Below the pieces are notes generated by a model. The model searched no databases, had not been told where the DNA came from, and saw only the letters and a program-made list of their open reading frames with translations. A program made the translations under genes and the position numbers. Shown here piece after piece: positions 7,226 to 31,700 of a stretch of 38,370 bases of DNA (positions are counted from its first letter, which is position 1; every line of letters begins with the position of its first letter). The DNA comes from Catajapyx aquilonaris (lineage: Eukaryota), in contig KZ538974.1 of NCBI GenBank assembly GCA_000934665.2, positions 1-38,370 of the forward strand. Reading direction: 5' to 3'.

Positions 7226-7755
7226 ATTCAGTGAGGCTGTGGAGTGCCAATGCCACGTGTTGGAGCCGACCAGGTGAATCGGTTGGCGGCCACACGTAAG
7301 TGAATCAAAAGGATCATCATAGCTATCCGAGGCGGCGGCAGAGGTGCCAAAAGGATGCCCGTACCGGCGTCTCCTTCGTCCAGTAGGAGGGAGTGCCTGT
7401 CGTACTCCCTGTCCTCGTACTCCAGCAGCTACCGTCCGGCAAGTCTGGACCGATCGTACACCTCCCGAGCGTACAGCAGCTATGGGAGCCACAAGGATTC
7501 GACAGCCACCGGGTCCAGCAGCAGCTCCAGTTACAGCACCTACCACAGCATGTCCCGACCACCCAGGCCCACTGTGGACAGGGGCAAAGGGGATACTCTG
7601 GGGGAGACTCGTGGGTCAAGGTTCACTAGCAAGTACCTTAGCACCAGCTCGCAAAGTTCTCCATCCAGGACCACGTATTCCTCCCGTATTGGGAGTGACC
7701 TAGCTGAATCCATCCTGAGGAAGGAAGCAACCGCTTCGGCGCTACGAGCCTCCAG
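7226..7755 (+). CDS. USP2: USP2 first coding exon (acceptor before 7226, ATG 7355, Ser/Tyr/Arg-rich [14 protein letters not shown]..., phase-2 donor)
   Basis: Pyrimidine tract ttcttcctccgttgcacccgcag ends at 7225. ORF 7355 runs to CAG|gtaggt at 7755/7756. The 401 coding nt leave AG, which the next exon's G completes. Confidence 0.75.
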
Positions 7756-10700
7756 GTAGGTGTCTGGTGTCTTGTATGGCCTTCGGTTGTGGATGGCCTT
7801 TCTCGGAGATGCTCCGGTTGCCCGGTATCGCTGCCCGGTTTGTGGTGGCCGTAATGTGGGTACGATTGGAGCAGTGCGTCGGACTGGGTGTGAACGCGTT
7901 ATTTTTAAAATTCGTGAATGAGGACTGCAGCTAGTCGATCTCGAGTCTGTATAAATATATATCATATGTAATAAAATTGGGGGCTAATTAGGTTTGATAC
8001 CCGGCAATTGTTAGGAGAAGATGCGGTATAAGGAAATTCAGCGTGTAGTTATTGTTTTATTGCCATTATGTTGCAAAAATTGCTCTCTCAGGCGCTGTCT
8101 CAGGAGGCACAGAGTGTATAAGTTGCAATCTAGCAACACAATATTCAAGTACTCTTGAAATATCGGCAAAACCTACGGCCAGCAGTGTTTTGTGATAGAC
8201 TTTTTCCTGAACCCTCTGGACGCGCTAATTCTGCATAGCATAATGGAAAATTCCATAAAATTATGGCCACCATAAGTCGAGTACAGATATCAGTGTCCTT
8301 AATCGGTCTACTAAAAGATCCAGAAGGAAACCATATGTTTCTGAGAAACTCATCTCGTGACATTCTCAGTCAATTATTATGGGAGCTGACAATGTGCACA
8401 AAGGTGGTACTGATGTGCCACCCGGATCTCTTGGGCAATTAGTTTGTTGCAAAACTGCCATAGGTGTAGGTCGTAGATAGATATCCGGTAAGCAGGAGCC
8501 ATTATAACCAGAGATAGACGACACAAACAACGTGTAGCAATGCTGAGTTGGCGGTATTACGCAAGCAAACAAGCATGCTGAGGTCCTGTATCTCCAGGTC
8601 GCAGTAAAATGTGGACTTCGCAGTTCTCTCCACCATGGCAGGGAGTTCAGAAGCGGGGAGATCTTATTTTAAATTCCTGGGATGCAACGTGTTACACAAT
8701 GGTGTTTTGAGAATGCGCTATATATGCATTGTAAACTTGACAATATTTCTGATGAGTATAGGCGTTCATAGTGCTGCTTGTATAGCCATCCTGCTCACAC
8801 TTGTATGCCGAGAATAATGGAGTTTCATAAGCGAAGCTGTCATATTGGTAGAAAATGTAAATATAAATGTTCTTCACGGTATGACAGGTCGTCGTGTACA
8901 AATGATGTCATGATCCAGTTCACTGTGTACTCACTACTTCATAGTTCATAGTTCTCATAAGCAGAAAGTTGTATGTGCCAGGACTTGAACTAATTATGGC
9001 AGTGAAATGAGCTGCATTGCCTTTGAAAAATCCGACTTAAATATTCTACGATATCGACTCCCAGATTTCCTTTAATTCAATTTTTAAACATGCATTCTGC
9101 ACTTTAATTTTGAGTCAGTTATATACCCATCGAACAGCATTTGCATATATTGGGAGATTTGATACTTCACAGCATTAATTTTTTTTATCAAATTACATAT
9201 GCATCTAGATGTGACTTTGTTTATCCTGATTCGTGTATACATAATATTGTACATTGATTCACAGAATACACAATTTGCTGGAGGCATGTCTTCAACATGC
9301 ACCATTTTTCGATGTTTTTTATTTTAAATGCTGAATTATATGTTCAATACATTTTTCAGTGCAGTGCAGTAGCTATATTGTACAACATGGTCTGGTCCAC
9401 CTTAGCAAGTATCGATATAGGCCTACAACTTTTAATATTTTTATTTTTATTACATAAATCACATTGTTATTCTCGACCTTTCCATACAGTTTATGGCTTG
9501 CTGATTGTACAGAAATCCCACAAGTAATCCTACACAGTACGTGGCGTTTCTCTTGCTTGACCATTCTCAACTTCATGTGCAAGGTAAACAGCAGCTGGAT
9601 TCTTGAACGGATCCAGCAAGTAATACGTATCTGCTGCACAAGGCAGCTGCAAATTATTGTTGTTGCTATTGTTGCCATTAACAACGTAGCCTACACCAGT
9701 ACACCATACATATTATTGTACTGTACATCACCCCAAGGAGTGTAGTAATTTTCATAGGTAGCCCTAAATATCTAACTTTAAGGTAAATAGGACCATCAAA
9801 AAAAGCCTTTGAAACCATTCAGTGGACAACAGTGTAGGCGACCATTGACGTTATACATTATACAGGGTGATCCGAAAGTATGAATAAGTAGGTAATTGTA
9901 TTGTTGGTTGGCAATAATTGCCAACCAACAATACGATACAATTACGATAACTGTGTCCAGATTTGGGAAGCGAAACGCCCGACATTCTCATCCTAAGAAT
10001 GTGTTGTTGCTAGCGCCATATGGTGGGATATTATCGCCACCATTTGAACCGTGCCATGGAATTACCCCACAAAAATGTGAGTATTCATAACTGTGAGCAT
10101 AAAAAGCGAGACATAAAGGTGTGACGTGACCATGAGAATAATGATGTTGGCTACCCTGTATTGTGCGTTGTTGACTGACAACAATTAGGCCACTGAGTGA
10201 ATATCCAGTTTCAAAATGAAACAGTCGTCGATTCTAGGGACTCCAGCCGTCGACGAGATTCCGGCTACGGCAGTTCACTGACCAGCACATATTCAGATCG
10301 CTCGTCTAGCCGCTACTCGACCTCACCTTGGAAGGAGACATCTACCACCGCAAGCACCATGAATGGCACTAGCAGCACCCGTTCCAAGTTGTCCCACGAC
10401 GCAGACGGAGAGAGTTCATCGCCCACAGGCAGCCGCTTCCTCCGTCGTACCAGTGGAACAACCGACACACGCTCGTCCTCCTCGTCGCCATCACGTCTGC
10501 TGGGAGTGAACCGTCGAGGATTGGACAACAGAAGGACCAGCAACGAGGTAACTAGCAACGGCGAACCTCCTAGTCAGCAGAAGAGCGGCGCATCAGCCGC
10601 GGGGTCGCCGTCGCCCGAGCCCAGCGAGGATGCCAACGGAAACCGATTGCCAGTTTCCGAGCTCCGGCGCCTCTTCGACACCAACGCCAACTGCAACGGG

Positions 10701-13700
10701 GCGTCGGGCAGGGCGGCCCCGTCCACTTCTAACCGATCCTCCCCGTCCATGACCCTAGCCAGCCCCGAGCACCGGGGGGAAGAAGCTGCGGACGACGAGG
10801 ATGACGACGACGACGACGAGGCCTCCACAGCCGCGGCGGCCGCTGCTGACGACTCGGCCGCCGAAGAGGCTGAGGAGGATAAGCAGACCAGAAACGGGAC
10901 TAGGTCTTCGTCCTCGTCGTCGTCGTCCTCCTCCTGCTCGTCCTCAGATTCCCCGACACCAACGGCGTCTGGGGCGCGCCGTGATGTGTCATGGACCACT
11001 CCTAACGATTCTCACAGAAGCCGGAGCCGCAGCAGCGGTACCGGCACATCCTCACCTACCCCTTCCAATTCTTCCTTTCCTTCCCAGGCGGGTAGCCCTC
11101 TAACAACCCGACGCACCAGCCGTAACGCCACCACCAACGGCGTCAACACCGACGCCAATGTGAGTAATACCGCTTGCTCTTGTTCCTCTGTCTCTTTTCT
11201 CTCTCTTTAACTGGTACGTCAACACGGGTCGGGTTCATTTGGTTGGCGCCTCTGGCCAACACAACCTCGGATGCCAATGAAATGAACCGCGGACCACTCC
11301 GATTCCTACATGCTTGGCCATACCGACTCTTCGCTGCCTTGGCCTGCCAGGAAATGTATCAATGTCACATTGTTCCCGTTCCGATTGACACACGTTAGAT
11401 GCATGCTTGCAGGGTTGTCGCACCCAGGGTCCATATACGAGGAAACTCCCCAAGCGTCGTCCATGCACCCGATCGGCATGAGACAATTGGGGGTTGCGTG
11501 TAAGAGCACATTGGAAAGCTTTGTCCGCGTACCCCCAAGGAGACTGGGAGGGTACAGCGGCGTCGGAGGGAGTATCCGCCGTCGGCACCAGTTGCGCTAT
11601 TCTTAGCCTCTCCCCATTTAGTTCCCGGCATCTGAAAAAAGCCTTGAGACCGTCCATGGTATTGGGCCGTGGAAGGAAGGGGTCATGTTATTCGGTGTCG
11701 CCTGCTGGTGCTGGATGCTGCACTGTGGCGCATGCCGCCTGAGCACCAAGCACCCGCCGTCGACGGCACTGAATAAACCCGGATGGCTCGAGCTGGCCCA
11801 TTTCCTCTGGCAAATCTGGCTCCTAGTCGCTCTGGCCTTTTGGTCACTCTATCTGCTCTCCATACTGCTGGGGCACCTGGTGCCCAAGGTAAGAAGGGGG
11901 ACCCCCAGCGCCGGGAGTACATTTCGCGAATATGGTTATTTTTAGAGGTGGGGAGGGTGGGGGTGTATGCCAGGGTGTAATGCGGCGGAGAATAAAAAGG
12001 AGGGGGAAAATAAGAGCGTCCGTGGATTATAATTAGAGCTCCGGTTTTTGTATCGCGCGCGGTGCATTTCGGGCGCCATGTTTTTGCAGACTAAATCGAG
12101 GGATGAGGAGATCGGGGTGGAAGCGTGTGCATCAGGTTTCAAGTGGTTATGCCGGCTCGTACACTGTGTGTACTGTTCCGGGGGTTAGCATATCAGCGAT
12201 TTTTCCCACATTTTCAATGGACCGCCAAGAGTTGGTAAAAGGCTAAATTAACTGCGGTTAGCACCTGCATCAGCTGGGTCTTTGGCGATTAGTGTGGTTG
12301 CGGTTGGGGGTTTCCAACGCGACACAAGTACAAGGCCCGTGTGAACCCGGTTTTCGTAGAATCCGAATTATCATCCTATTCCTTCTCCCTTTTTCCTAGA
12401 CGTCCCTCCTAGCATCCCAGCCTCCCCATGCTTCAGAGGCGTCCCAGACTTTCCGGATTTCCCGGATTCCTAGACCTCAAGAGGCTACCCGGACTTCCCG
12501 GATTTCTAGGCCTCCCGACGCTACTCGGACTTCCCATGCTTCAGAGGCTTCCAAGACTGCCCGGAATACCCAGACTTCCCGGATTCCTAGGCCTCCCGAA
12601 GCTACCCGGACTGTCCGGAATCCCATGACTTCCTGGAAAACCCAGGCTTCCCAGATTCCTAGGCCTCCCGAAGCTACCCGGACTGTCCGGAATCCCATGA
12701 CTTCCTGGAAAACCCAGGCTTCCCGGATTCCTAGGCCTCCCGAAGCTACCCGGACTGTCCGGAATACCATGACTTCCTGGAAAACCCAGTCTTCCCGGAT
12801 TCCTAGGCCTCCCGAAGCTACCCGGACTGTCCGGAATCCCATGACTTCCTGGAAAACCCAGGCTTCCCGGATTTCCAGGCATCCCGAAGCTACCGGGACT
12901 GTCCGGAATCCCATGACTTCCTGGAAAACCCAGGCTTCCCGGATTTCTAGGCCTCCCGACGCTACCCGAACTTCCCATGCTTCAGAGGCTTCCCAGGCTT
13001 CCCGGATTCCTAGGCCTCCTGACGCTACCCGGACTCCCCATGCTTCAGAGGCTTCCAACACTGCCCGGAACACCCAGACTTTTCGGGTTCCTAGGGCTCC
13101 TGAGGCTCTCCAGACTTCCCATGCTTCAGAGGCTTCCCAGACTGCCCGGAATATCCAGACGTTCCGGGTTCCTAGGTTTCCCGCGGATATGCAGACTTCT
13201 CACGCTTCAGAGGATTCCCAGACTGCCCGGAATACCCAGACTTTTCGGGTTCCTAGGCCTCCTGAGGCTCTCCAGACTTCCCATGCTTCAGAGGCGACAC
13301 AGGCTGCCCGGAATATCCAGACGTTCCGGGTTCCTAGGTTTCCCGTGGATATCTGGACTTCCCATGCTGCAGAGACTTCCCAGACTGTCCGGAATACCGA
13401 GACTTTTCGGGTTCCTAGGCCTCCTGAGGCTCTCCAGACCTCCCATGCTTCAGAGGCTTCCCAGACTGTCCGGGATACCGAGACTTTTCGGTTTCCTGGG
13501 TCTCCCGATGCTACCTGGACTTCCCACAAGTCCAAGCCATCCCCGACTTTCCTGACCTTCGAGGCATCCCGGACTTCACACATATCCGATGCATCCCGGA
13601 CTTGCCAGACCTCTGAACCAGCCTCGACTTCCAGTATTTCCCAGAAATCCGAGTTTCCCCTGACCGATGATGCTCACCTGAATTTCACAACCGGCCATAA

Positions 13701-16700
13701 GTCCGTACTCTTTGAGAAACTGGTACCTGGCGCAGGCGGTTCAGACAGAACAAGAGGCGCAAACGGCACAATCACCAAACTGAGGACCGAAGTAAGTTGC
13801 AGCTCTTGAATACCATGTAAACAATTACATTGTGTAGCGTGCGTTGTTGATTAGTACGCGGGCGTTGTCTGCAGCTGCACGGTGCGGTGTGTAAATGAGG
13901 TTTAGGGAGGCGTCTCTCAGGTCTGCTGATTGCGGTAAACATGTGAACACAAGTCAGCGCCAATCCATTTCCAGCCCATTTCACCCGCAGCCAGGCATGA
14001 CTGTACTACTGTACAGTCGCGAGCAAAAAGATGCGGACCGGGGTCAACGCGTTCGCTGTATACCGCCGGTGATGTCTCAACGCCAATGTTATTGTCCATT
14101 ACTTATATTCACGGTGAAGAAGAGACATCACCGGTTTTACAGCGAACTCGTTGAAGATCATGATGCTGCTCTGTCCCAGTCTTGTTGCTCGTGATAGTGC
14201 ATGCACTCATTCATACCAATGTAGTCTAATGTGTTTGTTTTAAGGAGTAGATTTGTACTCGCATGAATCTAGGTGAACACGCAATACTGATTCCGATCGT
14301 TCGCCATTATTCATCATTAAATTTTTTAAACATGAGACAAGGTGGAGAGTTCATCAAGGAACACCTGGCGCGGTAGTTGGGCTACTAAATTGTGCATATG
14401 ATTTTACTTGGATCTGACCCACTTATCGCCGAGTCAGTCGGGGGATATCAGGCATTAGGATACGAGTTGATATGGCGGTCAAGGAATGTGCTCGCCGCAT
14501 AGTTTTATAACTGGGTAGGTTTGTTGACAAGGGCAACGATCCGTACTGTTATGTCACTTTTGATAAAAAGCTTGTACGGCGCTTATGTCATCTCCCCAGT
14601 ATCGCGAGTAGTCTTGCGGCATGTCTGCAGGGCCGTATCTGTGAGTGGGTCAGCTTGAGCCAAAGGGCAAGTGAAGACTTGGAGCGCGGTTTAATAATCT
14701 GAGATTTTGCGGTAGTCACCTGGTACACCTGGTTAGTAGTATGGTTCTTGCTTCATGCCCGCAATCGGGTTAATTGCAGCGTCCTCCTCGGAATAATGAA
14801 TCGGACAGGGCCGTGTAGACAACACAACGAAAAAGTGTGCTGACAAGGTGATGCGAGACGAGGTGACCTAGAATGGCTGGTTGGGGGTAAAAAGGAAGGA
14901 GGTCATCGCCTTGTTCCAACCTCGACTGGCCGATATGTAGCATATAGGCAACCTTGGTGTCTGAACAAGGCCAGTTCTTAGGAATCGGCCTTCTTTTTAC
15001 GTGTGTGTCGGAAGAAATGGGAGCGAGGAGAGCCTTGGTAGCCTCCGAAGAGACTTGGCCTAGATGAGTTGGGGGGTCGGTATTTCCGGGCGAAAAAGGT
15101 CAGGATTTTGTGCTGCACGGCGAATACGGTACCGAACGTCGCAAAATTCCGAGGAAGTAGCAATCACACAGTAGCGTGCCGGACAGTATCTTCTCATGAT
15201 CATTTTTTGGGCCGTTTATTGCGTAACGCGGTGGGGTAGAGGTCGTGGGAAAGTCGTCGTAGGCTTCATTTGCAGGGGTTTTTTTCCCTCTCTCTCCTTG
15301 AATATTGCATAGCGTAATTTTTTTCTGTCGGATATGCAGTAATAATGACGTCAGCGTAGGAAAGCTTGTAATCTACCTTGGAATGCATCTTATTTCCTGG
15401 TTCTATTCGGAGTGAACGTGTCTTCAGATAGATTTCCTAGAACGGGGGATGCATTTATGTTTTTTTATTAGTCGTGCTGTAGCAGAGCGCGGAATGCAAA
15501 GTCGATAGCGAATTCACGACCTTGAGGCGACCTTCGTTCCGCCTCCGAAAGGCTCGGTATTTTAACGTGCGCGTAATGTCTGTCGCTTTTTTTTTTTCTT
15601 CTTTTTTCCGGAGGCGACGGTTCATTATTATGCAATAATGTAAGAGCTGACGAGGGGTGTGACCCTTGTTGACCTTTTTTTCGCGTCCATAAATCATTAT
15701 GGGGAGCTTTTGTCGGGGGGGGGGGGGGGTTGGTGTATAATTTAGAGACTCCCATGGTCCTGCAGGATGCCAGACAAATGCTCTTCCAAATTGCATTATG
15801 GCTTTATTATTATGTATACAACCAGGGAAATGGTTGTCAGTCACAGGCGACTAATAAAACGGTGTAAGTGGGAGACGGCTAAATCAATAGTGGCGCTTGA
15901 AATAACACCTGCAGATACTCCGTATTTATGAGATCGTGGTGACGTCATCGTCGGCACTCTATTGCTCCCTAGGTACTTACTGTATATACATGGGTGGTCC
16001 ATAAATGGTATACCGAGGAATAGGGTCGATGTCAAATTATTGCAACAACCATTACTTATCCAGCTGATACTAAATCTGATATCAAATATATTACGCCATA
16101 GGCTCGGATGGGGGGGGGGGNGGGCGTAAAAAAACAAGCCACGTGATTGATCTGAGTGATTCTCGCAGCGATTCCTCCATCCCCAAAATACACAAAAAAA
16201 GAGAGGTTACATAACCTCCAGTCCATATAGTGAATAAATCGCGACCGGAAGGGCCTGCGCCTTATAACAAGTGGATGTAGCAATCTGGGATATGCGGAAT
16301 GGACACATCCTCCTGGTCTGATGATATGCGTGCACTTGTTCGATGCGTCTGCAGATCCATGGGCGGGGGAGGCGGGATGAAGGCCTGGGTAGTGGGGCAT
16401 GGGGGCGGTGGGGTAGGTTTGACGCACGAAGAGATCGCTCTCAAGGCCGGCACAAGCGCCGGCTCTCAGTCAGTGGGCAGGTGAGAACGCGGTAGGATCG
16501 AGCTGTGCGGCACTATATATGTTTTTTTGTATGTAGAGAATAAAATTGGGTGGAAGGATCGATTTTTGGAAAAGGCGCGCAGGCCGGGCAGTGTTGGAAA
16601 TAACTGCGGTGCGAGGCGGCGGCAAGTATGAATCTGAAGCTTAGGTTGCCGCAGAACAGGAGGAAACGAGCGGTTCTGCAGCAGTTGATCATACAGGTAT

Positions 16701-19700
16701 GATGCGGGCCACCTGTTCGGGTGTCGGGACCGGAAACGTGTATCGGAGAGGGGATGCACGGCTGATGACAGTTTTTTTCCAGCTCATGCGCATGGTTACA
16801 TAATACGTTTTTTTTTTGGCACCGTGTGACACTTTTTTGGTTGGCTTGTCGCTCCCGTCTGCTCATCATGTGTGCGTGCAACAAGTGGCTTTTTGGGGTT
16901 AGTGGTAGGATGAAGGTGGCTGATTAACAGCTGATATTGGTGGGGAATACATTGCTGTTACGTCATAAGTGCTCGAAGAATTGTGAAACGGTGTTGTCAG
17001 GGGTTATTTGCAAACAGTTCTGATTTGCGCCTGACCAATAGTATTGTAATTAAAATGGGATTTCAAATTGCGGTTTTGTCTTGGTCATAGCGTGTCAAAT
17101 TTTAATCTATTGTAAGTTGTTAATTGATAAGCAATAAGCAAAAATGAGTGAACCTTGATTTGGTGCAATCCGCTCTAAATCAGATATTTTCAGTTGTTGG
17201 CGAATTAAGAATTTAGTTTAGGACTGGCATTGTTGCTGATAGTTTTACATAAAACACTTGTTGCACTCACATGTTATTTCACTACACTCTTAAGTTGTCA
17301 AAAAAAGGGGGGGGGAGGGGGGGAAACGTGGCCATTTATTGCTTATTTCATCTTGCTGCTTTGGTTTTCTAACAAACAAAAAAAACAATTAAATAACAGT
17401 GACAGTTTGCCACTACGAGTTTTCTAGTGCATGACTAATTAACTTGAGACAGACCAGGACCCGGCCATATCAAAGAGCAAGAGAGAGAGAGAGAAAAAAA
17501 AAAGTGCGATGGCAGTGGTCGTTATCAGGTACATTCCAATTCAAGAGGCATGGTTTAATTAGTTTGTTTTTGTTATGATGGTCGAGATGGAAAATGGCCT
17601 GCGTGATTGTCAAGGTAGGCAGAGTGTAGATTTGCCAGGTGTCATTAGGACACGTTTTGGAGATATGCTATTGGGAAAGTGTTTCATTGTTGTGAAACGG
17701 CAATAACGTAACAAACAATATGATAAATTTCAAAGATGTTCATATGACTGTATGATATATGGAAGCTTCTGTTCCAATGAGATGCCATGATATCAGCCAT
17801 GTTAAAGACATTAATAAATATGTACTGTAAAAGATTAAATTCAGTTGAAAATATATTAGTGTAGTAATTTGTGTCTTGCCGATATGTTGTGCAGGTTATG
17901 TATAAATTCAAGCCCACTTAATGTGATAGTTGACAAGAATAATTCATTTAGTATATAAATACGAACAACAACCAGTTTTCAAAGGTTAACGCCTTTCACC
18001 ATGATTGGGCAGAAATGTAGGTGTCGATTATTTAGTCAGACTGACATGAAAAACGTTGGATTTGGAAGCAATTAAAATGATTTCATGTGAAGTGTGGAGT
18101 TGGTGCATTGTACAGGGTGCGGAAATTTAATCTACCTTCGCTTTGGGGGATGGCAGAGGGCTTCCAGACGATCATTTTAAATATAGAAATGGGTCTCCGA
18201 ATCATAGTTACTGAGATAATTAGCATTAAATAAAAAGTGCATTATCTCAGCTTATAGGTATCGGATACTGCTTACAACACTTCCATCACCTAGGGCATTC
18301 CCTGCTGCACCTAACATGATCGTAAATTAAAATTAAATAACATGGTAACACCTTAAATTTAAATAAAAAAAGGCAAGGTCGCGTGGAGGGACGCATATGT
18401 GCCAGGATATTTTATACCTTGTGCTTTAAGTACATTATCTCGGTAACTATGTGTCAGAGACCCATGTTGCATATTCTCAAAGTGATCGCCTAGAAACCCC
18501 CAATCATATCCCAAAGCGACGGTAGATTAAATTTCAGCACCTTGTATATCTGCAAATGACAGTTCTCAAAGGTCACATTAGGTGGGTCACAGTGTTTTTG
18601 AGATAGCATTCGTTTCCAGGTGACACTGTAATACTGTGGTAATGTTTAGAATAGGCTGCTTGATTTTAATGTGTGCATATTGAAGGTAGTGTTGTTGTCA
18701 AATTTTTCTTTTTTTTACTTGCATTTAAGTGTACTCTGGATGTTCATAAATGGAGTAGACTATATTTTGGGTGCTTTTTTTTACTGAATGTTGTGAATTT
18801 TGACGTTCAGTGTTTTTTTTGCACGCCCTGGAACTGTTACTTCTTGGTTCATTGAATTAAAAATGACATGTGGGCTAAAAAAAGTTGTGACAAAGCAGCA
18901 AGAGAAAGGTTGGAATTTTGTTTGCTGACAGATACATGCACACGCAGCAGCACATTGGTATTTACCTGGATTTTGACACTTTTGCACTGCCAATGGGATC
19001 TCAACTTGGTTTGTGCATCTATGCATATGTACTAATTTTGTTGCTTTTTTATATTTAGGATAGCGATGTGATACCAACATCGCCTCAGATACTGCGGCGC
19101 TATCGCCATGATTCAGCTATCAATGAGCGAGGGGGACTTGTTGGCCTCCGAAACATTGGAAACACAGTGAGTTTGTTAGCGAGCATTTGTTTTTGCCGCA
19201 GGCACTTGTAAAACTCCTCATTTATTGTATCATTTATGTTGCAGTGCTTTATGAATTCAGTAATTCAGTGCCTGAGCAACACCAAACCCCTTCTTGAGTA
19301 TATGCTACGTGACAACTATCTCTCCGATATCAACACCACCGTATCCAGTATGAAGGGCGCACTCATAAAAGGTGAGGAACAGGGATTGTTGTAAATGGTA
19401 AAAATATAATCAAGAAGTGACCAATCAAGTCCCACTTCACTAATATTAATGCATTATGGAAATTCATTGAAGTTGATGGAAATAACTAAGTTGTGGGGTG
19501 TGATAGTTTCAGGCTCTTAAAAGGATGGTGACACCATGCATGCCATGGTTTGTAGGAAAGTGGCTTACTAGATTGATTAGATCCTTTCTCATAGTAATGC
19601 TACCAGTTTTTCCATGTATGCCCATTCCAGCTACTTTTGAGTCAGATGTGTTGGAATAGCCATTGAAGGAGGTTCTCCTTCCCCTTCTATAATGTTGGGA

Positions 19701-22700
19701 ATTTAATTTTTGTACTATAGGTGTACAGTGCCTGCCTCCTCCCCTCTCCTCCCCAACGTTTTCAGCCCCCAAGCCCAAAACTGATCTGAACTCATGGCTC
19801 CCTGCCACCACAACCTTCACTGATATTAGCAACAGTGCCAGGAATTGTCATGATTTGCAGATATGCAACCTAGTTGCACAAGCATTTTTTAGATCACTGT
19901 TCATTTTGTGAAGACAATCATGATCATTATGAATGAGCAGTTCTGAATGTGTTTCTAAAATAGGAGAATTTGGAAGTTAAAGTAAAATGTGCCCTAAATG
20001 CATAACATAAATAGGTTACATAATCAGAGAATTAATTTTGTCATGCATTAATATGAAAAAAATAACTCTCCCTTGAACATTACTGCAAGGTTGTGCAAGT
20101 TTAATAGAGTAGTGCTTAAAAATGAAAACTATGGTGCAATATAGAGTATTCAATCTCAAGTGAGGAAGCATTGAAATCTAGTGTATCATTTGATGGATTC
20201 ATGAGATAATTGCTGGGGAAATTATGAGGAGAACTAGGTATTTGTCTTTTGTCTGCTTTTTGTGGAGGTTCAGATTGAAGTTCACAACATTTCAAGCTTA
20301 CAAGGGAAGGTCACGGGGTGAAAATGACGGATCTTGATGAAATTGATCATGCTAATACAGGACAATATATGATACCCAAAAATGAAATATTTCGTGCGGA
20401 ACCCCATATTTGCAAAAGTTATGACGTCTTAAATTTCCAAAAATAATACATTTTCATACTCCATGGGATTACATTAGCGATCACATATAATGACATTGAA
20501 GTGTGCAATCAGTTTTTAGACCTTTTCTCATCGGAAAAAAGTCATACGGAACGGCTCTGGCCGGCCGTCCGTCCATCCGTCTCTGGACAGGTATCAAGGC
20601 CTAAACCGTAAGAGATAGCGACAAACGGTTTTCATATTCGGATTGAGCGTGACCAAAATAGGTTTCATGGTCAACTTCTGGTGACCCGCCACTTCCGGTC
20701 TTCCGGGTTCACTCTATCCGCACAAGGCTTGTCTACTTTACGGGCGGGTTATCATTGGATTTCAAAGTAGGTTTCCGTGTATTCCTGACCGTGTTTTTCG
20801 GGGATTTACTCCGGGTTTTACCTGACTCTCTGGCACAGGGGCTGTGAAATTTATTCCTGACGTTGGACATGTTTGCAATGAGCGTCATCGGCCGCCATGA
20901 TGTTATCGCCCAAGCAGATACTGGAATCGATATGTTGCCTAGGTTACGATATATCGATTCACATGCTCCCTGAAAGAATGAGAAAAGGTCTAGAAACTGA
21001 TTACACCCTTCAATGTCATTATATGTGGTGGCTAATGTAATCCCATGGAGTATGAAAATGTATTATTTTTGGAACTTTAAGACGTCATAACTTTTGCAAA
21101 TATGGGGTTCCGCACGAAATACTTCATTTTTGGGTATCATATATTGTCCTGTATTAGCATGATCAATTTCATCAAGATCCGTCATTATCACCCCGTGACC
21201 TTCCCTTGTTAGTTTGTGCAAAACTGACTGAAGGCATGCAAGTAGCTTTCTAATGAATGGGAAGAGGTCTTGAGGGAACCTTAAGATGTAACATTTTGTA
21301 CAATTTGTTCATTGTGAAGCAACATTTTTGCTGGAAGGGATTACAATTTCATCTCATTTTTCACAGCATTTGGAGATATGATTCGAGAACTCTGGAATGG
21401 GGAGGAGCGTGGTATGGTGAACACAACCTCTTTTAAGAGTCAAATACAGAGGTTTGCCCCTCGCTTTATGGGCTACAGTCAGCAAGATGCCCAGGAGTTC
21501 CTCCGCTACCTGCTCGAGGGTCTACATGAAGATGTGAATCGTGTAGTTTCCAAGCCACGTCCTCTTGCAGGGGACATAGATGACCGCCTCTCCGACTCAC
21601 AAAAGGCTATTGAAGCCTGGAAGCGGTACCTCCGCTTTGATGACTCCAAAGTGGTGGATATATTTGTTGGGCAGCTTAAGAGTACCCTGCGTTGTACATC
21701 CTGTGGACACTGTTCTGTGACTTTTGATCCCTTTTGGGATCTATCACTGTCTATCCCCAATCGGTCCAGTCAGATTAGATTGGCTCAGTGCTTTGATCTG
21801 TTTGCCAAGGAAGAGGTGCTAGACGGAGATGAAAAACCAGTGAGTATAATACCACCATTATGAAATGCCATTTTGCATACTGTCGAGGATAAAATATATT
21901 GTTAAAGTGCGCTCTATAGTTAAGGTTAATCTAACAATAATACCTTCAGAAAAGGCACATACTCAGGTGCATCATCTCTCCCTTATGCCATATATGATTT
22001 TCTTTTGAAAAAAACTTCTTCACTGACCAGTGTTTAACTGGTGTTTGTTGTGATAAGGATAGAAAGAAACACTTGTCCTTCATATGCATAAAACCATTTT
22101 AATCATTATTATTCATTTCCTTGTATATTGCATCCATGGGAAAATTGCTTACATTGTAAACAGATGACCCCGTATGCAGTTGTTTGAAGGGCTATTGCAG
22201 TTGATTTGCAAGTGTGGCTCACAAACTAATTTTGAATCTTGCAGTGCAATTTGTTTTTATCACATCTGAATGGTAAACCTAGGGCAAGTGGTCAAAGTTG
22301 GCTGGGATGCACTACCTGCTGAAAGGGGCTCATCAAGAGAGGGCGCAGTTGGTGCAGCCACTGGGATCCCACATGGATCCAGACATCCGTTCACTGTCAC
22401 TTCAACGGGCCTGGAAAAGAATTATGTACAGCTAACTCATTCTCTCCCAGCAAGGGTGCCTGAGTCAGGGAGTGGGAAGTGTTGCCAGTTGAAGCCAAAA
22501 TAATGTCTTTCCTGTCACTTAACCCTGGCGAGAGTTACTTGCAAAATGTTCGTCCTCCGGTGATTTTTTGTGTCTTTTTGTGACCATGTCACATTTTTTG
22601 TTAAAAATGGGAAATATAGCAAATTTGTGGGACAGTCTTGGGTTGATTCATTCTGCATTTAGTTCACATTTTTTGAGAAAATAGTACGATCAGAAAAAAA

Positions 22701-25700
22701 TTAACTATGCACTGATGTGTAGTTGGGCCAATATGTCGCTGCTTTGAGAGCCCGCAGTCAGATCGAATCGGAGGGTTATATCTTTATTATTTATTTATTT
22801 TTTGAAGTCACGGGAGGGTTGGCTTTATTTTAGAATAACTGTTCATGAATGTACGTGTTCATGAATCACTACTGATAAACTCAGGTCCCCCTCTGGAAAG
22901 CAAGAACCCTCCGGAGAGTGAATCATTCTTGGAATGCAGTCTTAAGGCCGGTTGCACCAGTCGCGGTATATGGAACGGTATATGGAAGAACCCTGCACCG
23001 CGGGTACACGGTATATGCCATGAAAAACCGCGGGTTTATTCCATAGCGTTGCACTGGTCCAGATAAACGGGGGGTTTTCGGTAGAATGCTGGCCCATGAG
23101 AGACGTAAGCGGGCAAAAATTTTGGAGAGCGCTGATTGGATCGCAGCACCCGTGACGCAATTCGTGACGTCATGGAAGTATGGCTATTCGACTAGTATCT
23201 ACGGCAACCATGTGGCAGGGTTGCCACCTGGTGTCACACAGTACACAAAATCCCAAGCACCAGTCCGCAACCACGACAACACCATAAACCCGCGGTATAA
23301 GCAACTTGTGCTGCAGGATCGGCGGGTAGATGGATCCGGCGGTAAATGGGAGGGATAACGGGCCGTTTTAGAACAACCGTAGGTGGCGCAACACTTCTCG
23401 CGGTATACCGGAGTCAAAACCCGCCGTTTTCCATATACCGTGACTGGTGCAACCGGTCCTTAGCTGCAACTACACACCGGTGCCTAATTTACTTTTCCCT
23501 GATCATGCTATTTGCTCAAAAATTTTAAACTAAATGCAATTTCCTGTGAGAGGAATCAAATGAAGATGTTCTCAAAGGTGAAGCTCAAATGTGCTATATT
23601 TTCCATGTTATAGCAAAAAAAAGTGGCCTTGGTCACAAAAAGATGCCACATCACCATCCGAGGGTTAATGTGTGATTACCTGACTAGTTAGCAGAAGGAG
23701 GCTGCTTAGCCAACTTTGACCTTTTTTCTGAGCCTTACTATATTCGCTTTCGCATTATTGTAATCGAGGTTTTTAGATCCCTACTTGCCAATTGACTGCA
23801 GTGTTCCTGTAAGTTAGAGTAGTGTCTCTGTCCCCGAAACACGAAATTCATTTTTTGTGACTTGTCATTTTTGATATGGCCTCTTAATACAAGGGCAAAT
23901 TTATAAGGCACCAGAAGTTTTTTCGAGCCACGTTTAATCTCCATAACAAATGTTTTGCAGGTGACAGCAAGGTACAGTGCTGGCCATATATCGAAGCAAT
24001 CGCCAGCGACACTTTTCCGAAGCGGCAGAAGAAGGAATCTGGCTCGCCCGGCTTGTAGCATGCTTATCTTTGATTCCTTCTTCTGCCGCTTCGGAAAAAT
24101 GTCGCTGGCGGTTGCCTCGATATATGGCCAGCACTGTACACTCTTTGGCTATTTTTAAACATATGAATCGTTTCTGTTGATGCGTTGGCCCCACTATGGC
24201 ACAAGGTTAAAGATTCCACGTTCATAGACCTCCTTTTTTTACCACAAGGCCTTTTTTTCAAGGGGACAATCACAGAGATGTCTTCTCGACCCTCAGTAAA
24301 CAGCTTACACCATCTTGATGTGTTGCTATGGTCCAGGCAGGTGTTCCCATACACTTCTGGGTGGGGTTTTGCCTTTCTCCCACGAAAAGCACAGCAGCTT
24401 ATTGCACAGTACGGGTGGACGATGCTAACACATTTGCCATCTCTGCTTGCTCATTTTGCTGGCTTGTTTTCTTTTGATGCACTAGTGGGCACCCTCATGG
24501 AGATCTGAGACCATGGACCTGTCCTTACACCAAGTGACTTTTGTCCCTTTGTCCCATTGAAAAAAAAAAGGAAAAAACATAGGTCTATGAACGTGGAATC
24601 TTTAACCTTGAGCCATGGTGGTACCAATCCATCAACAGGAACGATTCATATGTTGAAATATATCCAAAGATTGTCCCTTACCGTCACCTAGAAAACATTT
24701 GTTATTGGCATTAAACTTGGCTCGAAAAAATTATTGTGTGTTACATATCTATTTGCCCTCGTATATCTGCTAAATATTTGGTGACTAAGAGGATATATTA
24801 TGAACAGGATAAATTGTGGTAAATTATTTCACGTGCTACTTACATTTAAAAGTACAGTGGGACCCACTTATTTGGACCACATCGGGGCCATGGCATTTTG
24901 GCCCAATAAAGCGGGGGTTCGATTAATTGGGGTTCATGTGAAACAACAGGAAAAAACCGCAAAAAATTAGACTGCACTACCAGCTTTAATCCTATTGCTC
25001 AACAAGTGAAGGTAAAATCGATGTATGAAAGTGACTGTGTCATGCAAGTGTCATGCAAGTGCAAAGTACTGTACTGTACAGTAATTTTAGTGTTCACTCC
25101 GCTGTAAAAAATTGTCTAGTAACAACTGTCGGGTTCTTGTTTTTGACTTCATGTTAACAAAGTCCACGGAGGTGTCAAGTGCAATCACAGGACCGCCGTC
25201 ATTCCCTACTTGCAAAAAAATTCGTCAGTAGTATAGCATTATAGCAACGAAACTGGTCCGACTAACCGGGGAAATCGCCAGCTATGCGGGGAAAATTACA
25301 TTGTGGTATTGATTTGATTCCGGTCTTGGTGATTCGGTCCAAAAATGCAGGGGGCCCGATAAACTGGGCCACCAATAAAGTGGGTCGCACTGTATTAGTA
25401 TTTTCATCCCACCTGACCTAGCGGTCTGGATTAAGGCGGCGATAAAGAAAATTAGGACTTCTTCGAGTTCCAACTCTGGCCGAAAGGGGAGAGAGTGGAT
25501 CCCACCCTCCCTACACAAAAGAAAGGTCGCGTTTGCGGTTGACCATTCCTTCTAGGCACAATAAAAACCGTGAAAATTAGGGTTCCCCCACCTTCTAGTA
25601 GTTCTCAAATCAGTCAAATTTTGACAAAATTATTATTTGCCGAAAGGTTATAGCTATTTATATAAAAATCGGCTTCACGGGTCCGGAGCACCTCATTTTT

Positions 25701-28700
25701 GGGTGCTTGTTACGACATCACTTAAAATTTTACGACGGCGTAATTTACTCACGAATGCAAATGACTTTTTACAATACTACATTAAGAATATGGGAAAAGT
25801 ACATCACACGTGTAAGAGAGAGGTCAGTTACACTTACACCAAAAAAAAAATCGGTTCTGCTGTTGTTAGTTAGCGAGAACTTTACTCCTAAATTCTCTTT
25901 ATCCCCCCCTTAACCCTGAGTGTTAAGAGACAAGAAAAAAAGAAGGCTGCACGAAAATAACAAAATTCATAATGAACTGTCTACCTAAATACACTCTTGT
26001 TGAATAAGGCATTTGTTATGTTGATGCTTTACCTATTTTGATGTGATTAATAATGGACACAGATCCCATTGAGCTGCCTTGATAGCATTTACCAAAAGTT
26101 TGGATTTTTAGGTCTTTTGTGGGGAGCAAAATATAGCAATTAGGCTGAAGTTATTTCTTTCTTGAGTCTTGATTGAAAATAATTTTTACAAATATTAGAT
26201 AATATTCATAAACACATATTGATAAGGGTTTACTCAATGTGGCATTCTATTTGCTAAAATTGAACTTTTGTGAGAAAAAGACTAATGGCAGTTTCATCCA
26301 ACTGGTTGTACTGCTGGAATAAGTAATCCCTTGATAGTGTGCGTTTCTGAATACAGTAGACTCAGGATATAACAGACTTCAAGGGCCAGGGGAAGTTATA
26401 CCCAAATACACAGGCCATGTATGGAAGCAGCCCCCGGACACTTATACTACATTCTGATGTTATCGCCTGCAGAGGCATTTTGCAGGGGCTGCTCACCTGA
26501 GAGCGCCATGAGACATTTCAGAGCCCAGGTAAGTATAGCGACCCTACCGGATTAGGCTGAACTTTATAGGTACAAATGGGAAGCGCTACATGTGGGCCGA
26601 AAATGGCCGCCGGCGACCATGTTGGGTCCCCCAATGTAGCGCTTCCCTTTTGTACCTATAAAGTTCAGCCTAGTCCGGTAGGGTCGCCACTTACCTGGGC
26701 TCTGAAATGTCTCATGGCACTCTCAGGTGAGCACCTTCTGCAAAACGCCCTGGCAGGGGGTGGGTGTGAGTGACCAGACCTGAGTATTCTTAGATCATGT
26801 ATGGAAGTATGGCAGGACCAGCCTTTCAAGTCTGCTAACTGAGAATCTGTTATAGCTGAAGCTGTTATATCTGGACTCAACTGGATTACCTATTCACTGT
26901 ATCATTATAGAACCATGAAAGGACCCCTTTCATGATTTGAATATGCTCTGTGAATGAGTAATTTTTAGTGGAAGTTGTTCCATACGGTAATAGATGAAAG
27001 AGTGAAACTGAATTTATCAATATCTGTTTTCGGAGTTGTGAAAACTTGTGAAACTTGTGAATTTGCAGTTTCCTCATGTGTGAAAGGGTCACAGAAAGTG
27101 CGGGGAACTTCATAATTTAGGAACAACTTCTACTGAAAATTATCAATAAACAGACAAATTAATTCTTCATGGTATCCTTTACCCTCTTTTTTATGTATCT
27201 ATGCTGATTACTTTTAAATAAGCTTTAGGCCCCTAGTCTGATGACCCCGGGTAAGCTATCCCGCGGGCAATCACCATGGCAACATATGTAAAAGGATAGC
27301 AGTAAACAACCCCAGGGGGCAAGCTACCCGGGGTCACCAGACTATATACCTTAAAATGATTACCAAGTTACTGTGTTTGTATTATCGTGGTTGCATTCCT
27401 TGCTGTTAATTACAGTTGTTTGTTGTATTCCAGACTTGTTCTCAATGCCAGGTGAGACGCAAGTGCACAAAGAGCTTCTCGATTCACAAGTTCCCCAAGA
27501 TTCTCGTACTTCGTATCCTTTTGTGATGTTAAACAGGAATGGCATTTTTCATTTCGAAGGATTTGAGGAAGTTATGGAATTGTGTGCAAAAATAATTGTT
27601 TTATTTCATATGGCAGATTGCCATAATCACAGGTTTTCATAATGTCATTGATATTGTTGCATCTTGTGGCATGGATGTTCATAATAATTGACAAGATGCT
27701 AAAAAGGTATTGGATGGAAGGGCAATGACATGTGGAAGTAATCAAACATTTGGGTTCCAACTTTGGCCTATGTGCTACGTCCTGCGGTGAGTCACTTTAG
27801 GTGTGTAGGATGGAGCGTCTTCTGCACGGTCACAGTAACAAGACCTTATGAGAAGGATATTTTAAAAGCATCACAGAGTTCTCATTCACATTATTTCCAC
27901 CCTGCATAGCACACAAGTTATCCATTACAACTTGCCTCTAGTAGAAGGTAGTGTTTTGGTGGTGCAGGCAGATTATGGAACTTTGTGAACTCTTGGTGTT
28001 CTTTTCCTTAACTTCTCCCACCAGACCTCAAACGCTTTTCCCCAAATGAGCGCTACAGGGGCAAGCTCAACACAACTGTGGACTTCCCCCTAACAGGCCT
28101 TGACCTGAGTCCATATGCAGCCACAAGGAGCCAGGGCTGCATGTACGACTTGTACGGCATGGCAAACCACTCCGGTACTACGTACTCTGGTCATTATACA
28201 GCTTACTGCAAGCACCCCTACTCAAATGAGTGGCATGAATACAATGATGCCAGGTAGGTTCAGCAGATAGAATTGAACAGTTGAACATTCCCAGTAATAG
28301 GGTAAAGATGGTTTCATATGTTGTCACTGCATTACATTTTTTAAATTTATTTATTTTTATTTATTTTTATTTTTAAATACCCTGTGCTAGGGCCGAAAGG
28401 CCCTATCAGGGGGGTGGGAATACTACCATATTTGGAACCATGTGTATAATTTACAATTATTTAGTTGGTCCACGATTAGGATAAGTAGGAGGGGATGTGC
28501 AAAGTGCAAGTGTAATGTCGTAGCTTGGTCATTTTGTGAACTCCCCCGGGTGGATTAGTCGAGCAGAAATTTCCACCCGAGACAAAGCCAGAGATGGCCC
28601 AACTCTGCACGAGATGAAGGGGGGAACCCCGGGTTGGGTTCGAACCCGTGACCTTAACATCCGTGGGCGCGTGCGTTACCGCAGCCTTTGCTGTGATGGA

Positions 28701-31700
28701 TTTTGATAGTGGGAGGAAACGGGAGAACCCCGAGAAAACCCACGCAAACACGGAGAGAACCCATCGAAACTCTATCCACATAAGCATCCTCTGTCCGATC
28801 CGGGGATCGAAACTTGGGACCTTAGAGGTGGAAGGCTGTGGCTCTAACTACTTCGCCACCGTGCCGCCCTTATTTTCTTGCCAAAATTTGTAGTAGGAGT
28901 GATATTAATGAAAAACAATATGCTCCAATATTTATCATTTTAACTCATTGTGGTCCTTTTGACTGTAAAATACCGAAAAAAATCATATACAGGGTGTGCC
29001 AGAATAAAAATTACATTGCAATTAACTTTCGAAATTTAATTAAGTTTAAAGTCACTATATGTTGTTACTATGTTTACATAATAATACTAAAACACTGTAT
29101 TATGAGAAATTCCTAAGAGTCCAGACTTACGGGACACCCTGTTATGATACCGCAGGAGGGGGTATGATTAGCTCACGCTGGGTGGCGGAATAACTGATTA
29201 TCATATGCCATGGTAGATGAGCCCCCTTCCACGAGGTGGTAGGAGCAGTTTGAGCCTCAAACTGCGTCATTTCTGTCTAAACTTGAGCGCACCCAGTTCA
29301 AAAACCAGCAGGACATCATATGATGTCCTTAGGCCTCAAAGGGTTAAGTTCACATCAATCCTAATTTACAATTATTAGAAGTGGTATACTTTTCCTAAGT
29401 ATATGGTGCATGCACATAACACCAAGAGCATAAGTGTGAGACACAATCTTGAAATTATTTTGGGAATATGGGATTATTACCATATTACCTCACTTCCTCA
29501 CTTAATTGCGGCATGCCAGCGTAGGCGAGGTTGACCAGTTTTTCGAAATGCTCGATCTGGTGGCTATACCGGCATTCCAGTCTGGGAGGTATGCCGGTAT
29601 AAGGCGAGGTTTTCTTACGATCTCTATAAAAATTATTATTACTCGAAGGAATGCATTACACCATGTTCTACAGTACGGATACAGCCCAGGACACTTCTAT
29701 CAGCTGACACATCCCATAAGATCGTTTGTTAAGTTCAAATTTTACAGCAACATTTTCAATTAAAAGAGCAAGGCTGCTAGAAGGGAAGCATACCTACCAG
29801 GATATTTCATACGTTTGGTTTGGATTTTATCTGAGTTGACGAGGCTTCTCAGACAAATTGATACCACTACGCAAAGAGATCCTCTGATTATCAACAAGAT
29901 CTGCGACCACTGAACTATTGATAGCAAAATGAAGGACTGAAGGAATTTGCTTTGATCCTTTTCAGATCCTTTGTCATGTTTAGGGGGGTTCCCCTCTCAG
30001 AGCAGGCTGACAGTCGGATTGGTCACTCTCTATGCCCTGTGCAACAGATGAACTCGAATTCTCACAGCCCTGTACTCGTACATTTTTCACCGTAACATTA
30101 TGTTAGTACAATATCAGATGCATTCCAAAATATTTGACAAGGATCAAAATTATGGAAATCTGCCGCGGGTATTGCGGCATGCTGGTCACCCCCGGTTATA
30201 CCGCCAATACCGGCATGGTGGTTGACCTCGTTTTATACCAGCATGCCGCAATAAGTGAGGTAATACGGTATAAGGAATGTAATAATTCAATCATGGAATA
30301 ATTACATACATGCAATGGAAGAGCAAAAATGCCCAAAATGTCACTTCCAGTCGTCTGTGTTCAATCAGGGCCACCTAGAGACAAGGCCGGGGCGCGGGAA
30401 CGGGTGGATCGCTGTGACGTCACGATTGGGGGCTAGCTTTTCCATAAGCGGGCTATGGCGGGAGCACGTTTTTGTACACATTTCAGCGAATTTCGTCATA
30501 CCAATGCATCGGAGGCCCATGACACCCTCTAATTGATGTCAGGGAAATAATGTGGAGATTCCAACGACACCAAATTCGATTTAGTATGTGTGCAATGTGT
30601 CTGCATATTCGGCGATATATAAGACGAAGGATGTCAGGCATGAGGAAGAAGTGCAGGAATAATTAATAACAATGGGGTTTTAAATTATAAAGTATTAATG
30701 TTAATATTATTTCATATTTCCTATTTTGCGGAAAGAGTCCAAACGTAACATGCAAGTTATACTCATAAGCATTGAAACAAAATTAGCACATTACACAACA
30801 TAATACCATTTAGCTCTTGATAATTACATACAGTACATACACAACACTTGTAGACCAATTGTACAACAATTTTGTAGACCAGTGTTATCTAAATCAGAGT
30901 GGATAATTTCGAGGGAATAAGTGATTGACATCTGGACGAAGGACAGCTGGGTTCTCCCCCACCATTTACTACTGTCAAACAAAAACATGTGCGATTTTTT
31001 CACATCGTTGGAATCACCAAATCATTCCCCAGATATCAATTAGAGGGTGTTATGATCCTCCGATGCATTGGCATGAAAATAATAGAGAAAACGTGTACAA
31101 AAATGTGCTCCCGCCATAGTCCGCTTACGGAGGAGCTCGCCCCCTAGCGTGACGTCATGATTCCGGCGCCCGGGCCTTGTCTCTAGGTGGCCCTGGTTCA
31201 ATAGTGAATGCAGCAGCCAAGTGAATGTTGGGGAGTGGGAGGGGTACCTTCACATGGTCAATCATGGATCTCACAGTCCAGCCAGCCATACAACATCTAG
31301 GTCATTATCAAAACCAGTCTATCAACATCAGTACGAATCCTTCAGAAAACATGAAATTCCGATTGAGTGAGTATTTTCATGGTCCAGCGGTGACCTTCCT
31401 CAATGGAAGATGGACCTGAGGTGAAAATATTCCATATATTGGAAATAGGAATTTAGCTTTGAGTTGATGCCTGTAACAAGGAATTAACACATTTTGACAA
31501 CATGAGACAGCCTGGTTTTGATAATGACCTTCTCATATATTTATTAGCTAATCTACATTGTCCAAGGACAAAATAGTGTGATCATTTGACAATTTGGTAC
31601 TTTTTTTCAACTTCCATTTGCATCAAATTCAACACATTATGTGCATTGGTTGCAGCTATGTGACATATTGCTTTCTTTAGATTGAAAGGATATGGAGCAA

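What the first reader, a model, noticed from the sequence alone, without database searches (positions are those of the whole stretch)
11160..19058. Modular phase-0 exon hub that could swap the N-terminus of a deubiquitinase
Seen: the upstream donor (11159) and the acceptor of the first catalytic exon (19059) are both phase 0. Three independent open frames in between (11622-11888, 12400-13791, 16343-16480) each end at a good GT donor exactly on a codon boundary. Known: mammalian USP2 makes long and short isoforms (USP2-69, USP2-45) by joining alternative N-terminal exons to a shared catalytic core. Inference: this locus could yield a soluble form of about 808 aa, a membrane-anchored form, a repeat-extended form of about 1272 aa and a short basic form of about 413 aa.
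Basis: partly seen in the sequence, partly recalled or inferred. Interest (0 to 1): 0.75.

Follow-up and report, generated by a model that had tools for sequence, protein, structure and literature searches.

The report
Membrane-anchor exon for insect USP2
One large intron of this insect-type USP2 deubiquitinase gene holds alternative front-end exons, one of which codes for a membrane anchor like a USP2 form present in database records of several insect groups, so the same enzyme is probably sent either to membranes or to the cell interior depending on which front end is used.

Summary
The splice geometry is as described. The gene is a single-copy hexapod-type USP2. Of 235 YAG sites in the intron, 12400, 19059 and 11622 have the three strongest pyrimidine tracts. 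11888 and 16480 are the only donors matching consensus at 6/7 or better. The hub is conserved in relatives: 8 of 209 USP2 N-termini carry a transmembrane stretch (mayfly, louse, planthopper, beetles, termite-like and bee-like records; none of 47 Diptera-named), and 6 of 8 join the core at the same residue as soluble forms. Exon A (11622/11685-11888) is probably this membrane-anchor exon, by position and architecture; sequence homology was not shown. Exon B (464 codons) is probably a real lineage-specific cassette, although its repeats show no synonymous bias. Exon C is uncertain: weak start, out-of-frame upstream ATGs, but two D-boxes and an E-box flank it. No RNA run was listed, so no junction is shown in this species. 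Alternative USP2 N-termini are known in mammals; five paper searches found no N-anchored insect form. Verdict: new variant of a known kind.

The parts
7355..7755 (+). First coding exon of the long forms (MPVPASPSS..., Ser-rich); phase-2 donor CAG|GTAGGT; acceptor at 7226
   Evidence: relatives start MPV...
10238..10547 (+). The acceptor at 10238 is weak and uncertain
   Evidence: in 18 of 31 clean-insertion pairs among relatives the insert begins with Val (GTN), as here (pairs not independent, mostly beetles)
10548..11159 (+). Exon 3 extension (acidic/Ser-rich, with conserved [10 protein letters not shown] motif at 10650), ending at phase-0 donor AAT|GTGAGT
   Evidence: motif found in 35 relatives; the block is present in some isoforms of relatives and skipped in others
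11622..11888 (+). Exon A: acceptor AG|11622, in-frame ATGs 11685 and 11715, donor AAG|GTAAGA; candidate membrane-anchor N-terminus (435 or 425 aa with core)
   Evidence: single copy in genome
11814..11870 (+). Predicted transmembrane helix (Kyte-Doolittle 19-residue mean 2.38)
   Evidence: 12 of 828 six-frame ORFs in the window reach 2.2
12400..13791 (+). Exon B: 464-codon Thr/Ser/Arg/Pro/Ala-rich cassette built of 24- and 27-aa tandem repeats; strongest acceptor in the intron (19/20 pyrimidines); donor GAA|GTAAGT
   Evidence: only one of six frames without stops; single copy
16140..16145 (.). E-box CACGTG upstream of exon C (not enriched in the window)
16206..16215 (.). D-box/PAR-bZIP-type site GTTACATAAC upstream of exon C (consensus recalled)
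16343..16480 (+). Exon C: 46-codon Arg/Gly-rich candidate short first exon, donor CAG|GTGAGA (413 aa with core); uncertain
16795..16804 (.). Second D-box-type site GTTACATAAT downstream of exon C (TTACGTCA also at 16958)
19059..19166 (+). First shared core exon (hub acceptor, phase 0), ending just before the catalytic Cys codon
19245..32009 (+). Remaining core exons 19245-19371, 21367-21839, 27434-27512, 28025-28253, 31920-32009; 367-aa USP domain with Cys box, His box and C-terminal SHL (PTS1-like)

Best explanation
The intron before the first catalytic exon is the gene's N-terminus selector, as in other insects. Every upstream donor is phase 0, so any of them can join the 367-aa core at 19059. 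Long soluble forms come from the upstream start, with a choice of donor at 10547 (604 aa) or 11159 (808 aa). Exon A supplies a short N-terminus with one transmembrane helix, read from ATG 11685 or 11715 in a transcript that starts within the intron (possibly through a short untranslated leader using the acceptor at 11622). It anchors the enzyme in an organelle or ER-derived membrane with the catalytic domain in the cytosol (435 aa). Exon B is an optional, lineage-specific disordered spacer that can be added after exon A (899 aa, a long tether) or after exon 3 (1068 or 1272 aa). Exon C may be a further short first exon, less certain. Shown: splice signals, frames, and the hub and TM forms in relatives' proteins. 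Inferred: use of each junction here, orthology of exon A, topology, target membrane, and any promoter.
For: Top three acceptors of 235 are 12400, 19059 and 11622, all in frame. Only two donors reach 6/7 in 7.9 kb, and both close an ATG-led phase-0 frame; 0 of 21 control donors in the window have one of 46 codons or more. Donor+ATG+TM occurs in 0.2% of shuffles and at 0 of 121 background donors. 8 of 209 relatives have a TM N-terminus; these segments are homologous to each other (7 of 8 pass leave-one-out at 2/300 or fewer); 6 of 8 share the exact core junction with soluble forms (5, Lycorma by eye). In the one model that chains the TM segment internally (P0072) it lies between the last soluble block and the core, the order seen here. 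More basic residues follow the helix than precede it in 7 of 8 relatives and in exon A. Exons A and B are single-copy. Mammalian USP2 isoforms share a core and differ at the 5' end (PMC7865608, PMC5723915, passages).
Against: Exon A does not match the relatives' TM profile beyond composition (score -0.3 bits; 189 of 1000 TM-only shuffles as good). It ranks first of 828 ORFs only with the composition correction off (E 0.068) and is not in the top 12 with it on. Pairwise tests are marginal (4 of 9 under 5%, uncorrected, in differing registers). Direct searches with exon A found nothing. Its charge bias is weak (4+/3- after the helix). An out-of-frame ATG at 11656 precedes the in-frame start. The good in-frame acceptor at 11622 also fits a cassette after exon 3. 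Exon B repeats show dN/dS about 1.08 in the proposed frame (11 synonymous, 32 non-synonymous) and no homologue. Most TM relatives are genome-annotation models; only one is a RefSeq isoform and two are short Logan contigs.
Confidence: 0.68

Rival explanations
1. Exon A is an internal cassette: 11159 (or 10547) splices to 11622 in frame, giving an 897-aa protein with a hydrophobic helix about 500 residues in, rather than an N-terminal anchor.
For: The acceptor at 11622 is among the three strongest of 235 and in frame with the 11159 donor. One beetle gene model carries the TM segment internally (P0072). No start-site data exist here.
Against: 7 of 8 TM relatives have the helix starting at residue 3-40; P0072 is a 'hypothetical protein' model. 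A long unsignalled N-terminus would be expected to leave the catalytic side in a lumen (general topology knowledge). In-frame ATG 11685 has a purine at -3.
Confidence: 0.13
2. Only the conserved soluble options (10547 and 11159 to 19059) are used. A, B and C are intronic frames: a chance hydrophobic stretch, an expanded 9n-periodic minisatellite and a G-rich stretch.
For: No homologue for A, B or C in direct searches; profile test negative for A; no synonymous bias in B; C matches an 8-10% background rate; the 11160-13791 region is GC-rich (0.51-0.59), which lowers stop frequency.
Against: Joint placement of the best acceptors and donors exactly at the frame ends; shuffles that keep local composition give A's pattern 0.2% of the time; relatives need a TM exon joined at this very junction; B is C-rich like the gene's exons and unlike its introns.
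Confidence: 0.12
3. Exon C marks a real, clock- or bZIP-driven internal promoter, but its coding role is doubtful: either a short basic USP2 (like mouse USP2-45) or a leader whose upstream ATGs limit translation. This is a sub-hypothesis that can hold together with the best explanation.
For: Two D-box-type 10-mers within 15800-17000 against 0.048 expected from 200 kb of background (P about 0.001, window chosen after seeing them); E-box at 16140; 6/7 donor. Mouse USP2-45 has its own promoter with an E-box and is repressed by E4BP4 (PMC3487853, passages). Beetle relatives have short first exons on the same junction, one of them basic (P0226, P0229, P0232).
Against: ATG 16343 has T at -3; out-of-frame ATGs at 16299, 16321 and 16326 lie just upstream, and the 16326 frame runs through the donor out of phase. 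No sequence similarity to any relative's N-terminus. D-boxes are enriched across the whole locus (6 sites against 1.5 expected), not only at C.
Confidence: 0.4

Closest known systems
Mammalian USP2 isoforms (USP2-69/USP2a, USP2-45/USP2b)
   Same: One catalytic core, different 5' exons and N-termini (PMC7865608, PMC5723915, passages); C-terminal PTS1 (PMC3487853, passages; here SHL); short isoform on its own clock-controlled promoter may parallel exon C.
   Different: No transmembrane isoform is mentioned in the passages read. [quoted passage not shown] Here there are more donors, a TM exon and a repeat cassette. Whether the mammalian junction is the same intron position is recalled, not verified (one search found nothing).
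Annotated insect USP2 isoforms with a hydrophobic N-terminus (Cloeon CAB3368745.1, Pediculus XP_002432627.1, Rhynchophorus KAF7282109.1, Lycorma XP_075219029.1, Dendroctonus A0AAR5Q555; unnamed P0008, P0122)
   Same: Short N-terminus, one hydrophobic helix, basic residues after it, joined to the first core exon at the junction used by soluble forms.
   Different: Exon A is not detectably similar in sequence, has a 43-residue Cys/Trp-rich lead and only six residues between helix and junction, and is followed by a repeat exon not seen in relatives.
USP19 (cytosolic and ER-anchored isoforms)
   Same: One deubiquitinase gene giving a soluble and a membrane-anchored isoform, with location deciding function (PMC4755399, passage).
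   Different: USP19's anchor is a C-terminal tail; here it is N-terminal, and the enzyme is USP2.
USP30 (mitochondrial, N-terminal anchor; anchor position recalled)
   Same: An N-terminal helix that holds a USP domain on an organelle surface.
   Different: A separate gene with a constitutive anchor (recalled); here the anchor is one optional exon.

Membership tests
USP2 (peptidase C19) | USP domain with Cys box, His box and Asn/Asp | tested here: met
   GNTCFMN, GHYTAY and YNDARV in the 367-aa core; Pfam UCH E 8.8e-21 for one exon
USP2 (peptidase C19) | Closer to USP2 than to USP21, USP8 or USP15 | tested here: met
   PDB bits 188 (USP2), 137 (USP21), 133 (USP15), 111 (USP8); 81-82% identity to hemimetabolous insect USP2; next-best match in the genome 40%
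USP2 (peptidase C19) | C-terminal PTS1 | tested here: met
   Ends SHL; consensus from PMC7865608 passage; 105 of 213 relatives match, 0 of 47 Diptera-named. Import itself not tested
USP2 alternative N-terminus system | Several 5' exons that can join one shared core exon in frame | tested here: met
   Five phase-0 donors upstream of acceptor 19059; same pattern in relatives' proteins
USP2 alternative N-terminus system | Transcripts carrying the alternative junctions in this species | not testable with these tools
   No RNA holder listed
USP2 alternative N-terminus system | Separate, clock-controlled promoter for a short isoform | tested here: inconclusive
   D-box and E-box motifs around exon C; start context poor
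Insect TM-anchored USP2 isoform | One hydrophobic helix near the N-terminus, basic residues after it | tested here: met
   KD19 2.38, starting at residue 44 or 34 depending on the Met; 4+/3- downstream
Insect TM-anchored USP2 isoform | Joins the first core exon in phase 0, lying between the soluble block and the core | tested here: met
   (splice signals and gene order; not transcripts)
Insect TM-anchored USP2 isoform | Sequence homology to the TM exon of other insects | tested here: inconclusive
   Profile test negative (189/1000); pairwise marginal (4 of 9 under 5%)
USP19-type anchored isoform | C-terminal tail anchor | tested here: not met
   The helix is N-terminal; the C-terminus is SHL
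Transposon-derived or dispersed repeat | Other copies in the genome | tested here: not met
   Exon A, B and C regions each match only themselves (the search skips very common words)

The most novel reading that the evidence does not exclude
Most insects outside Diptera use promoter and splice choice in this one intron to route a single USP2 core to different places: an ancestral N-terminal membrane anchor (exon A, here with an optional 464-aa repeat tether) that holds the enzyme on an organelle surface and overrides the C-terminal peroxisomal signal, long soluble forms, and a short D-box/E-box-driven form that cycles with the clock. Flies lost both the anchor and the peroxisomal signal, so Drosophila work on Usp2 could not see this.
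Probability: 0.3. Interest if true: 0.72.

Novelty: new variant of a known kind. Interest (0 to 1): 0.5.

Why it matters
Few deubiquitinases carry their own membrane anchor, and location largely sets their substrates (PMC4755399, passages). An optional N-terminal anchor on USP2, present in records from about six insect lineages but in none of 47 Diptera-named proteins seen here, would mean that the fly is a poor model for insect USP2. It gives a direct test: tag the TM and soluble forms in a beetle or bee cell line and see where they go. Mouse USP2-45 acts at membranes without a described anchor (PMC4710524), so insects may have reached the same end by an integral helix. The forms are already in public annotations but, in the searches run, unremarked.

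Tried and rejected
RNA evidence: no RNA holder listed for 10200-19400; none was listed, which is not evidence either way, and read laying was therefore not run. Direct homologue searches with exon A: nothing (22 candidates, none at E<=10, 0 hits, no usable hit). Exon B: Pfam only a sub-threshold Plasmodium_HRP match; Atlas hits all under 0.9; phmmer against relatives' N-termini not significant. Synonymous-site test on exon B repeats: no support, and a different frame scored better (P 0.055) but has stops. A crustacean record with a short basic N-terminus (P0110) looked like an exon C analogue but is a fragment of a longer form (P0244): rejected. Transposon origin of A, B or C: rejected; the inverted-repeat elements lie elsewhere, the only one inside this intron at 18111-18546. 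CRE sites: several lie in inverted-repeat elements, so I give them no weight. E-boxes are not enriched. The tree is the quick version (the careful search did not finish); the window row sits next to Odonata at 85% SH-aLRT with no starred group, so placement is unresolved. A paper search to verify the human exon boundary found nothing. Earlier scan findings: none shown. No structure or complex prediction was run, because the spliced forms cannot be given as references.
Full report
The gene. The window is a whole contig (G000:C1982) of a 286-Mb genome. It holds one USP2 gene on the + strand. The core exons are 19059-19166, 19245-19371, 21367-21839, 27434-27512, 28025-28253 and 31920-32009, all with AG/GT ends. 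They give 367 aa with Cys box, His box and a C-terminal SHL. The best solved relative is USP2 (188 bits against 137 for USP21), and the gene is single-copy (next match 40%). The core is 81-82% identical to cockroach, termite, damselfly and katydid USP2, with no close kin; the quick tree does not place it firmly.

The observation. Every coordinate holds. Of 235 YAG sites in the intron, the three with the most pyrimidines in the 20 bases upstream are 12400 (19), 19059 (16, the known core acceptor) and 11622 (16). Only two donors in 7.9 kb match the recalled consensus at 6 of 7 positions, 11888 and 16480, and each closes an ATG-led phase-0 frame (68 and 46 codons). None of 21 such donors in control parts of the window has one of 46 codons or more. 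In 200 kb of other contigs, 12 of 121 do, real exons included, and 0 of 121 carry a hydrophobic stretch. In 1000 block shuffles, the donor+ATG+hydrophobic pattern arose in 0.2%, a 46-codon ATG frame in 8%. The 13791 donor scores 5/7. The lengths 808, 1272 and 413 aa reproduce, but the first two depend on a weak acceptor at 10238 (9/20).

The hub in relatives. No RNA run was listed, so I used proteins. A search with the largest core exon listed 120 of 1858 hits; a second with the N-terminal region of one hit listed 120 of 126. Together these gave 224 proteins, 209 with at least 19 residues before the Cys box. Within a species, different N-termini join one identical first core residue: termite, mayfly, weevil and bark beetle, planthopper and bee. 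In 18 of 31 clean-insertion pairs the inserted block begins with Val, as expected if an internal phase-0 GT donor is read through (pairs not independent, mostly beetles). The same pattern is here at 10547 (GAG|GTAACT...SNE|V...), followed by the [10 protein letters not shown] motif found in 35 relatives.

The membrane form. 8 of 209 N-termini have a 19-residue hydropathy mean of 1.6 or more (actual values 2.2-2.9): Cloeon, Pediculus, Lycorma, Rhynchophorus, Dendroctonus, Exocentrus and two unnamed Logan records that group with termite and bee. In 7 of 8 the helix starts at residue 3-40. Six of 8 share the exact core junction with soluble forms (five, Lycorma by eye); Pediculus and Exocentrus had no same-species partner. 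The segments are homologous to one another: 7 of 8 pass a leave-one-out profile test at 2/300 shuffles or fewer. One is a RefSeq isoform, two are short Logan contigs, the rest are genome annotation models whose transcript support I could not see. None of the 47 Diptera-named proteins has such a segment, and none of them ends in a PTS1-like tripeptide, whereas 105 of 213 proteins overall do (Diptera list compiled by hand; the sample is limited to 234-748 aa and to listed hits).

Is exon A that exon? By place and build, yes: it lies between the soluble block and the core, has one helix (11814-11870, mean 2.38), more basic residues after than before it, and a phase-0 donor six codons later. By sequence, not shown: it scores -0.3 bits on the relatives' profile and 189 of 1000 shuffles of its own helix do as well; it ranks first of 828 window ORFs only with the composition correction off. 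Pairwise tests are marginal (4 of 9 under 5%, uncorrected), and three direct searches were blank. An out-of-frame ATG at 11656 precedes the in-frame ones at 11685 and 11715. The strong acceptor at 11622 means exon A is probably entered from an upstream exon: either an untranslated leader (a GTAAGA lies at 11500) or exon 3 in frame. I put a membrane-anchored product at about 0.7.

Exon B. It is built of 24- and 27-aa repeats, is single-copy, is C-rich like the gene's exons, and only one of six frames is free of stops. That frame begins exactly at the best acceptor of the intron and ends six codons past a GTAAGT donor. Against: variation among repeat copies shows no synonymous bias (11 synonymous, 32 non-synonymous, ratio 1.08), and nothing like it was found elsewhere. 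This fits a young, disordered spacer where length matters more than sequence (inference). Its nearest upstream donor is exon A's, so an 899-aa anchor-tether-enzyme form is as likely as the 1272-aa form. About 0.65 that it is spliced in.

Exon C. Its frame alone is ordinary. Its ATG has T at -3 and three out-of-frame ATGs lie within 45 bases upstream. In favour: two D-box-type 10-mers (16206, 16795; consensus recalled) flank it, against 0.048 expected in 1.2 kb (P about 0.001, window chosen after the fact), with an E-box at 16140. The locus as a whole has 6 such sites against 1.5 expected. Mouse USP2-45 has its own promoter, activated by Bmal1/Clock and repressed by E4BP4 (PMC3487853, passages). 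Beetles have short first exons on the same junction. About 0.4.

How it works. Shown: in-frame splice geometry here, and alternative N-termini including a TM form in relatives' records. Inferred: start-site and donor choice give long soluble forms (604, 808 aa, with or without exon B), an N-anchored form with the catalytic domain in the cytosol (435 or 899 aa), and perhaps a short cycling form (413 aa). All end in SHL. Mouse USP2 is imported into peroxisomes by its PTS1 (PMC3487853, passages), so an anchor would keep the enzyme on a membrane surface instead. Which membrane is unknown.

What is known. Mammalian USP2 isoforms share a core and differ in 5' exons (PMC7865608; PMC5723915; passages). 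USP2-45 is clock-controlled and found in membrane fractions (PMC4710524, passages). USP19 has soluble and tail-anchored isoforms (PMC4755399, passage). Five searches showed no paper on a transmembrane insect USP2; I read listings, plus passages of PMC4140012, PMC3427330, PMC5642568 and PMC4617714, which did not mention one. The library lacks most subscription papers and I opened no supplements, where domain tables might note it. USP30's N-terminal anchor is recalled.

Verdict. The hub is real and is the USP2 theme known from mammals. The new part is an N-terminal membrane-anchor option, present in records from about six insect lineages and probably here, with a lineage-specific repeat cassette beside it. 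New variant of a known kind; interest 0.5.

Noticed in passing
window 10547: Extra phase-0 donor inside exon 3 (GAG|GTAACT), matching the internal donor pattern of many insect USP2 isoform pairs; gives a 604-aa form.
   Followed up: yes
window 31998-32009: The protein ends in SHL, a PTS1-like signal shared by 105 of 213 relatives but by 0 of 47 Diptera-named proteins, which also lack the TM form in this sample.
   Followed up: partly
window 2948, 3579, 16206, 16795, 20015, 34969: Six D-box-type 10-mers in the locus against about 1.5 expected from genome background; two lie upstream of the long-form exons and two flank exon C.
   Followed up: partly
window 7226-7300: A GTAAGT at about 7296 lies inside exon 2, upstream of the MPV start, after a short ATG-led frame; possibly another alternative donor or a leader ORF.
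   Followed up: no
window 18111-18546, 20293-21216, 22270-23741, 23918-24730, 26466-26757, 30360-31201, 35373-35480: Several inverted-repeat (MITE-like) elements in the introns and 3' region; some carry TGACGTCA in their arms.
   Followed up: no
window 26528: A perfect CAG|GTAAGT donor with a 36-codon ATG frame lies in one arm of an intronic inverted repeat; it is the one control hit with an ATG frame of 30 codons or more.
   Followed up: no
window 27512: The donor of core exon 27434-27512 is a weak TTC|GTATCC, paired with the next acceptor at 28025; a possible minor-spliceosome intron (recalled consensus, not tested).
   Followed up: no
P0226, P0232, P0229: Weevil and bark beetle share a conserved 7-residue first exon on the hub junction, and bark beetle has a short basic one; no sequence match in this window.
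   Followed up: partly
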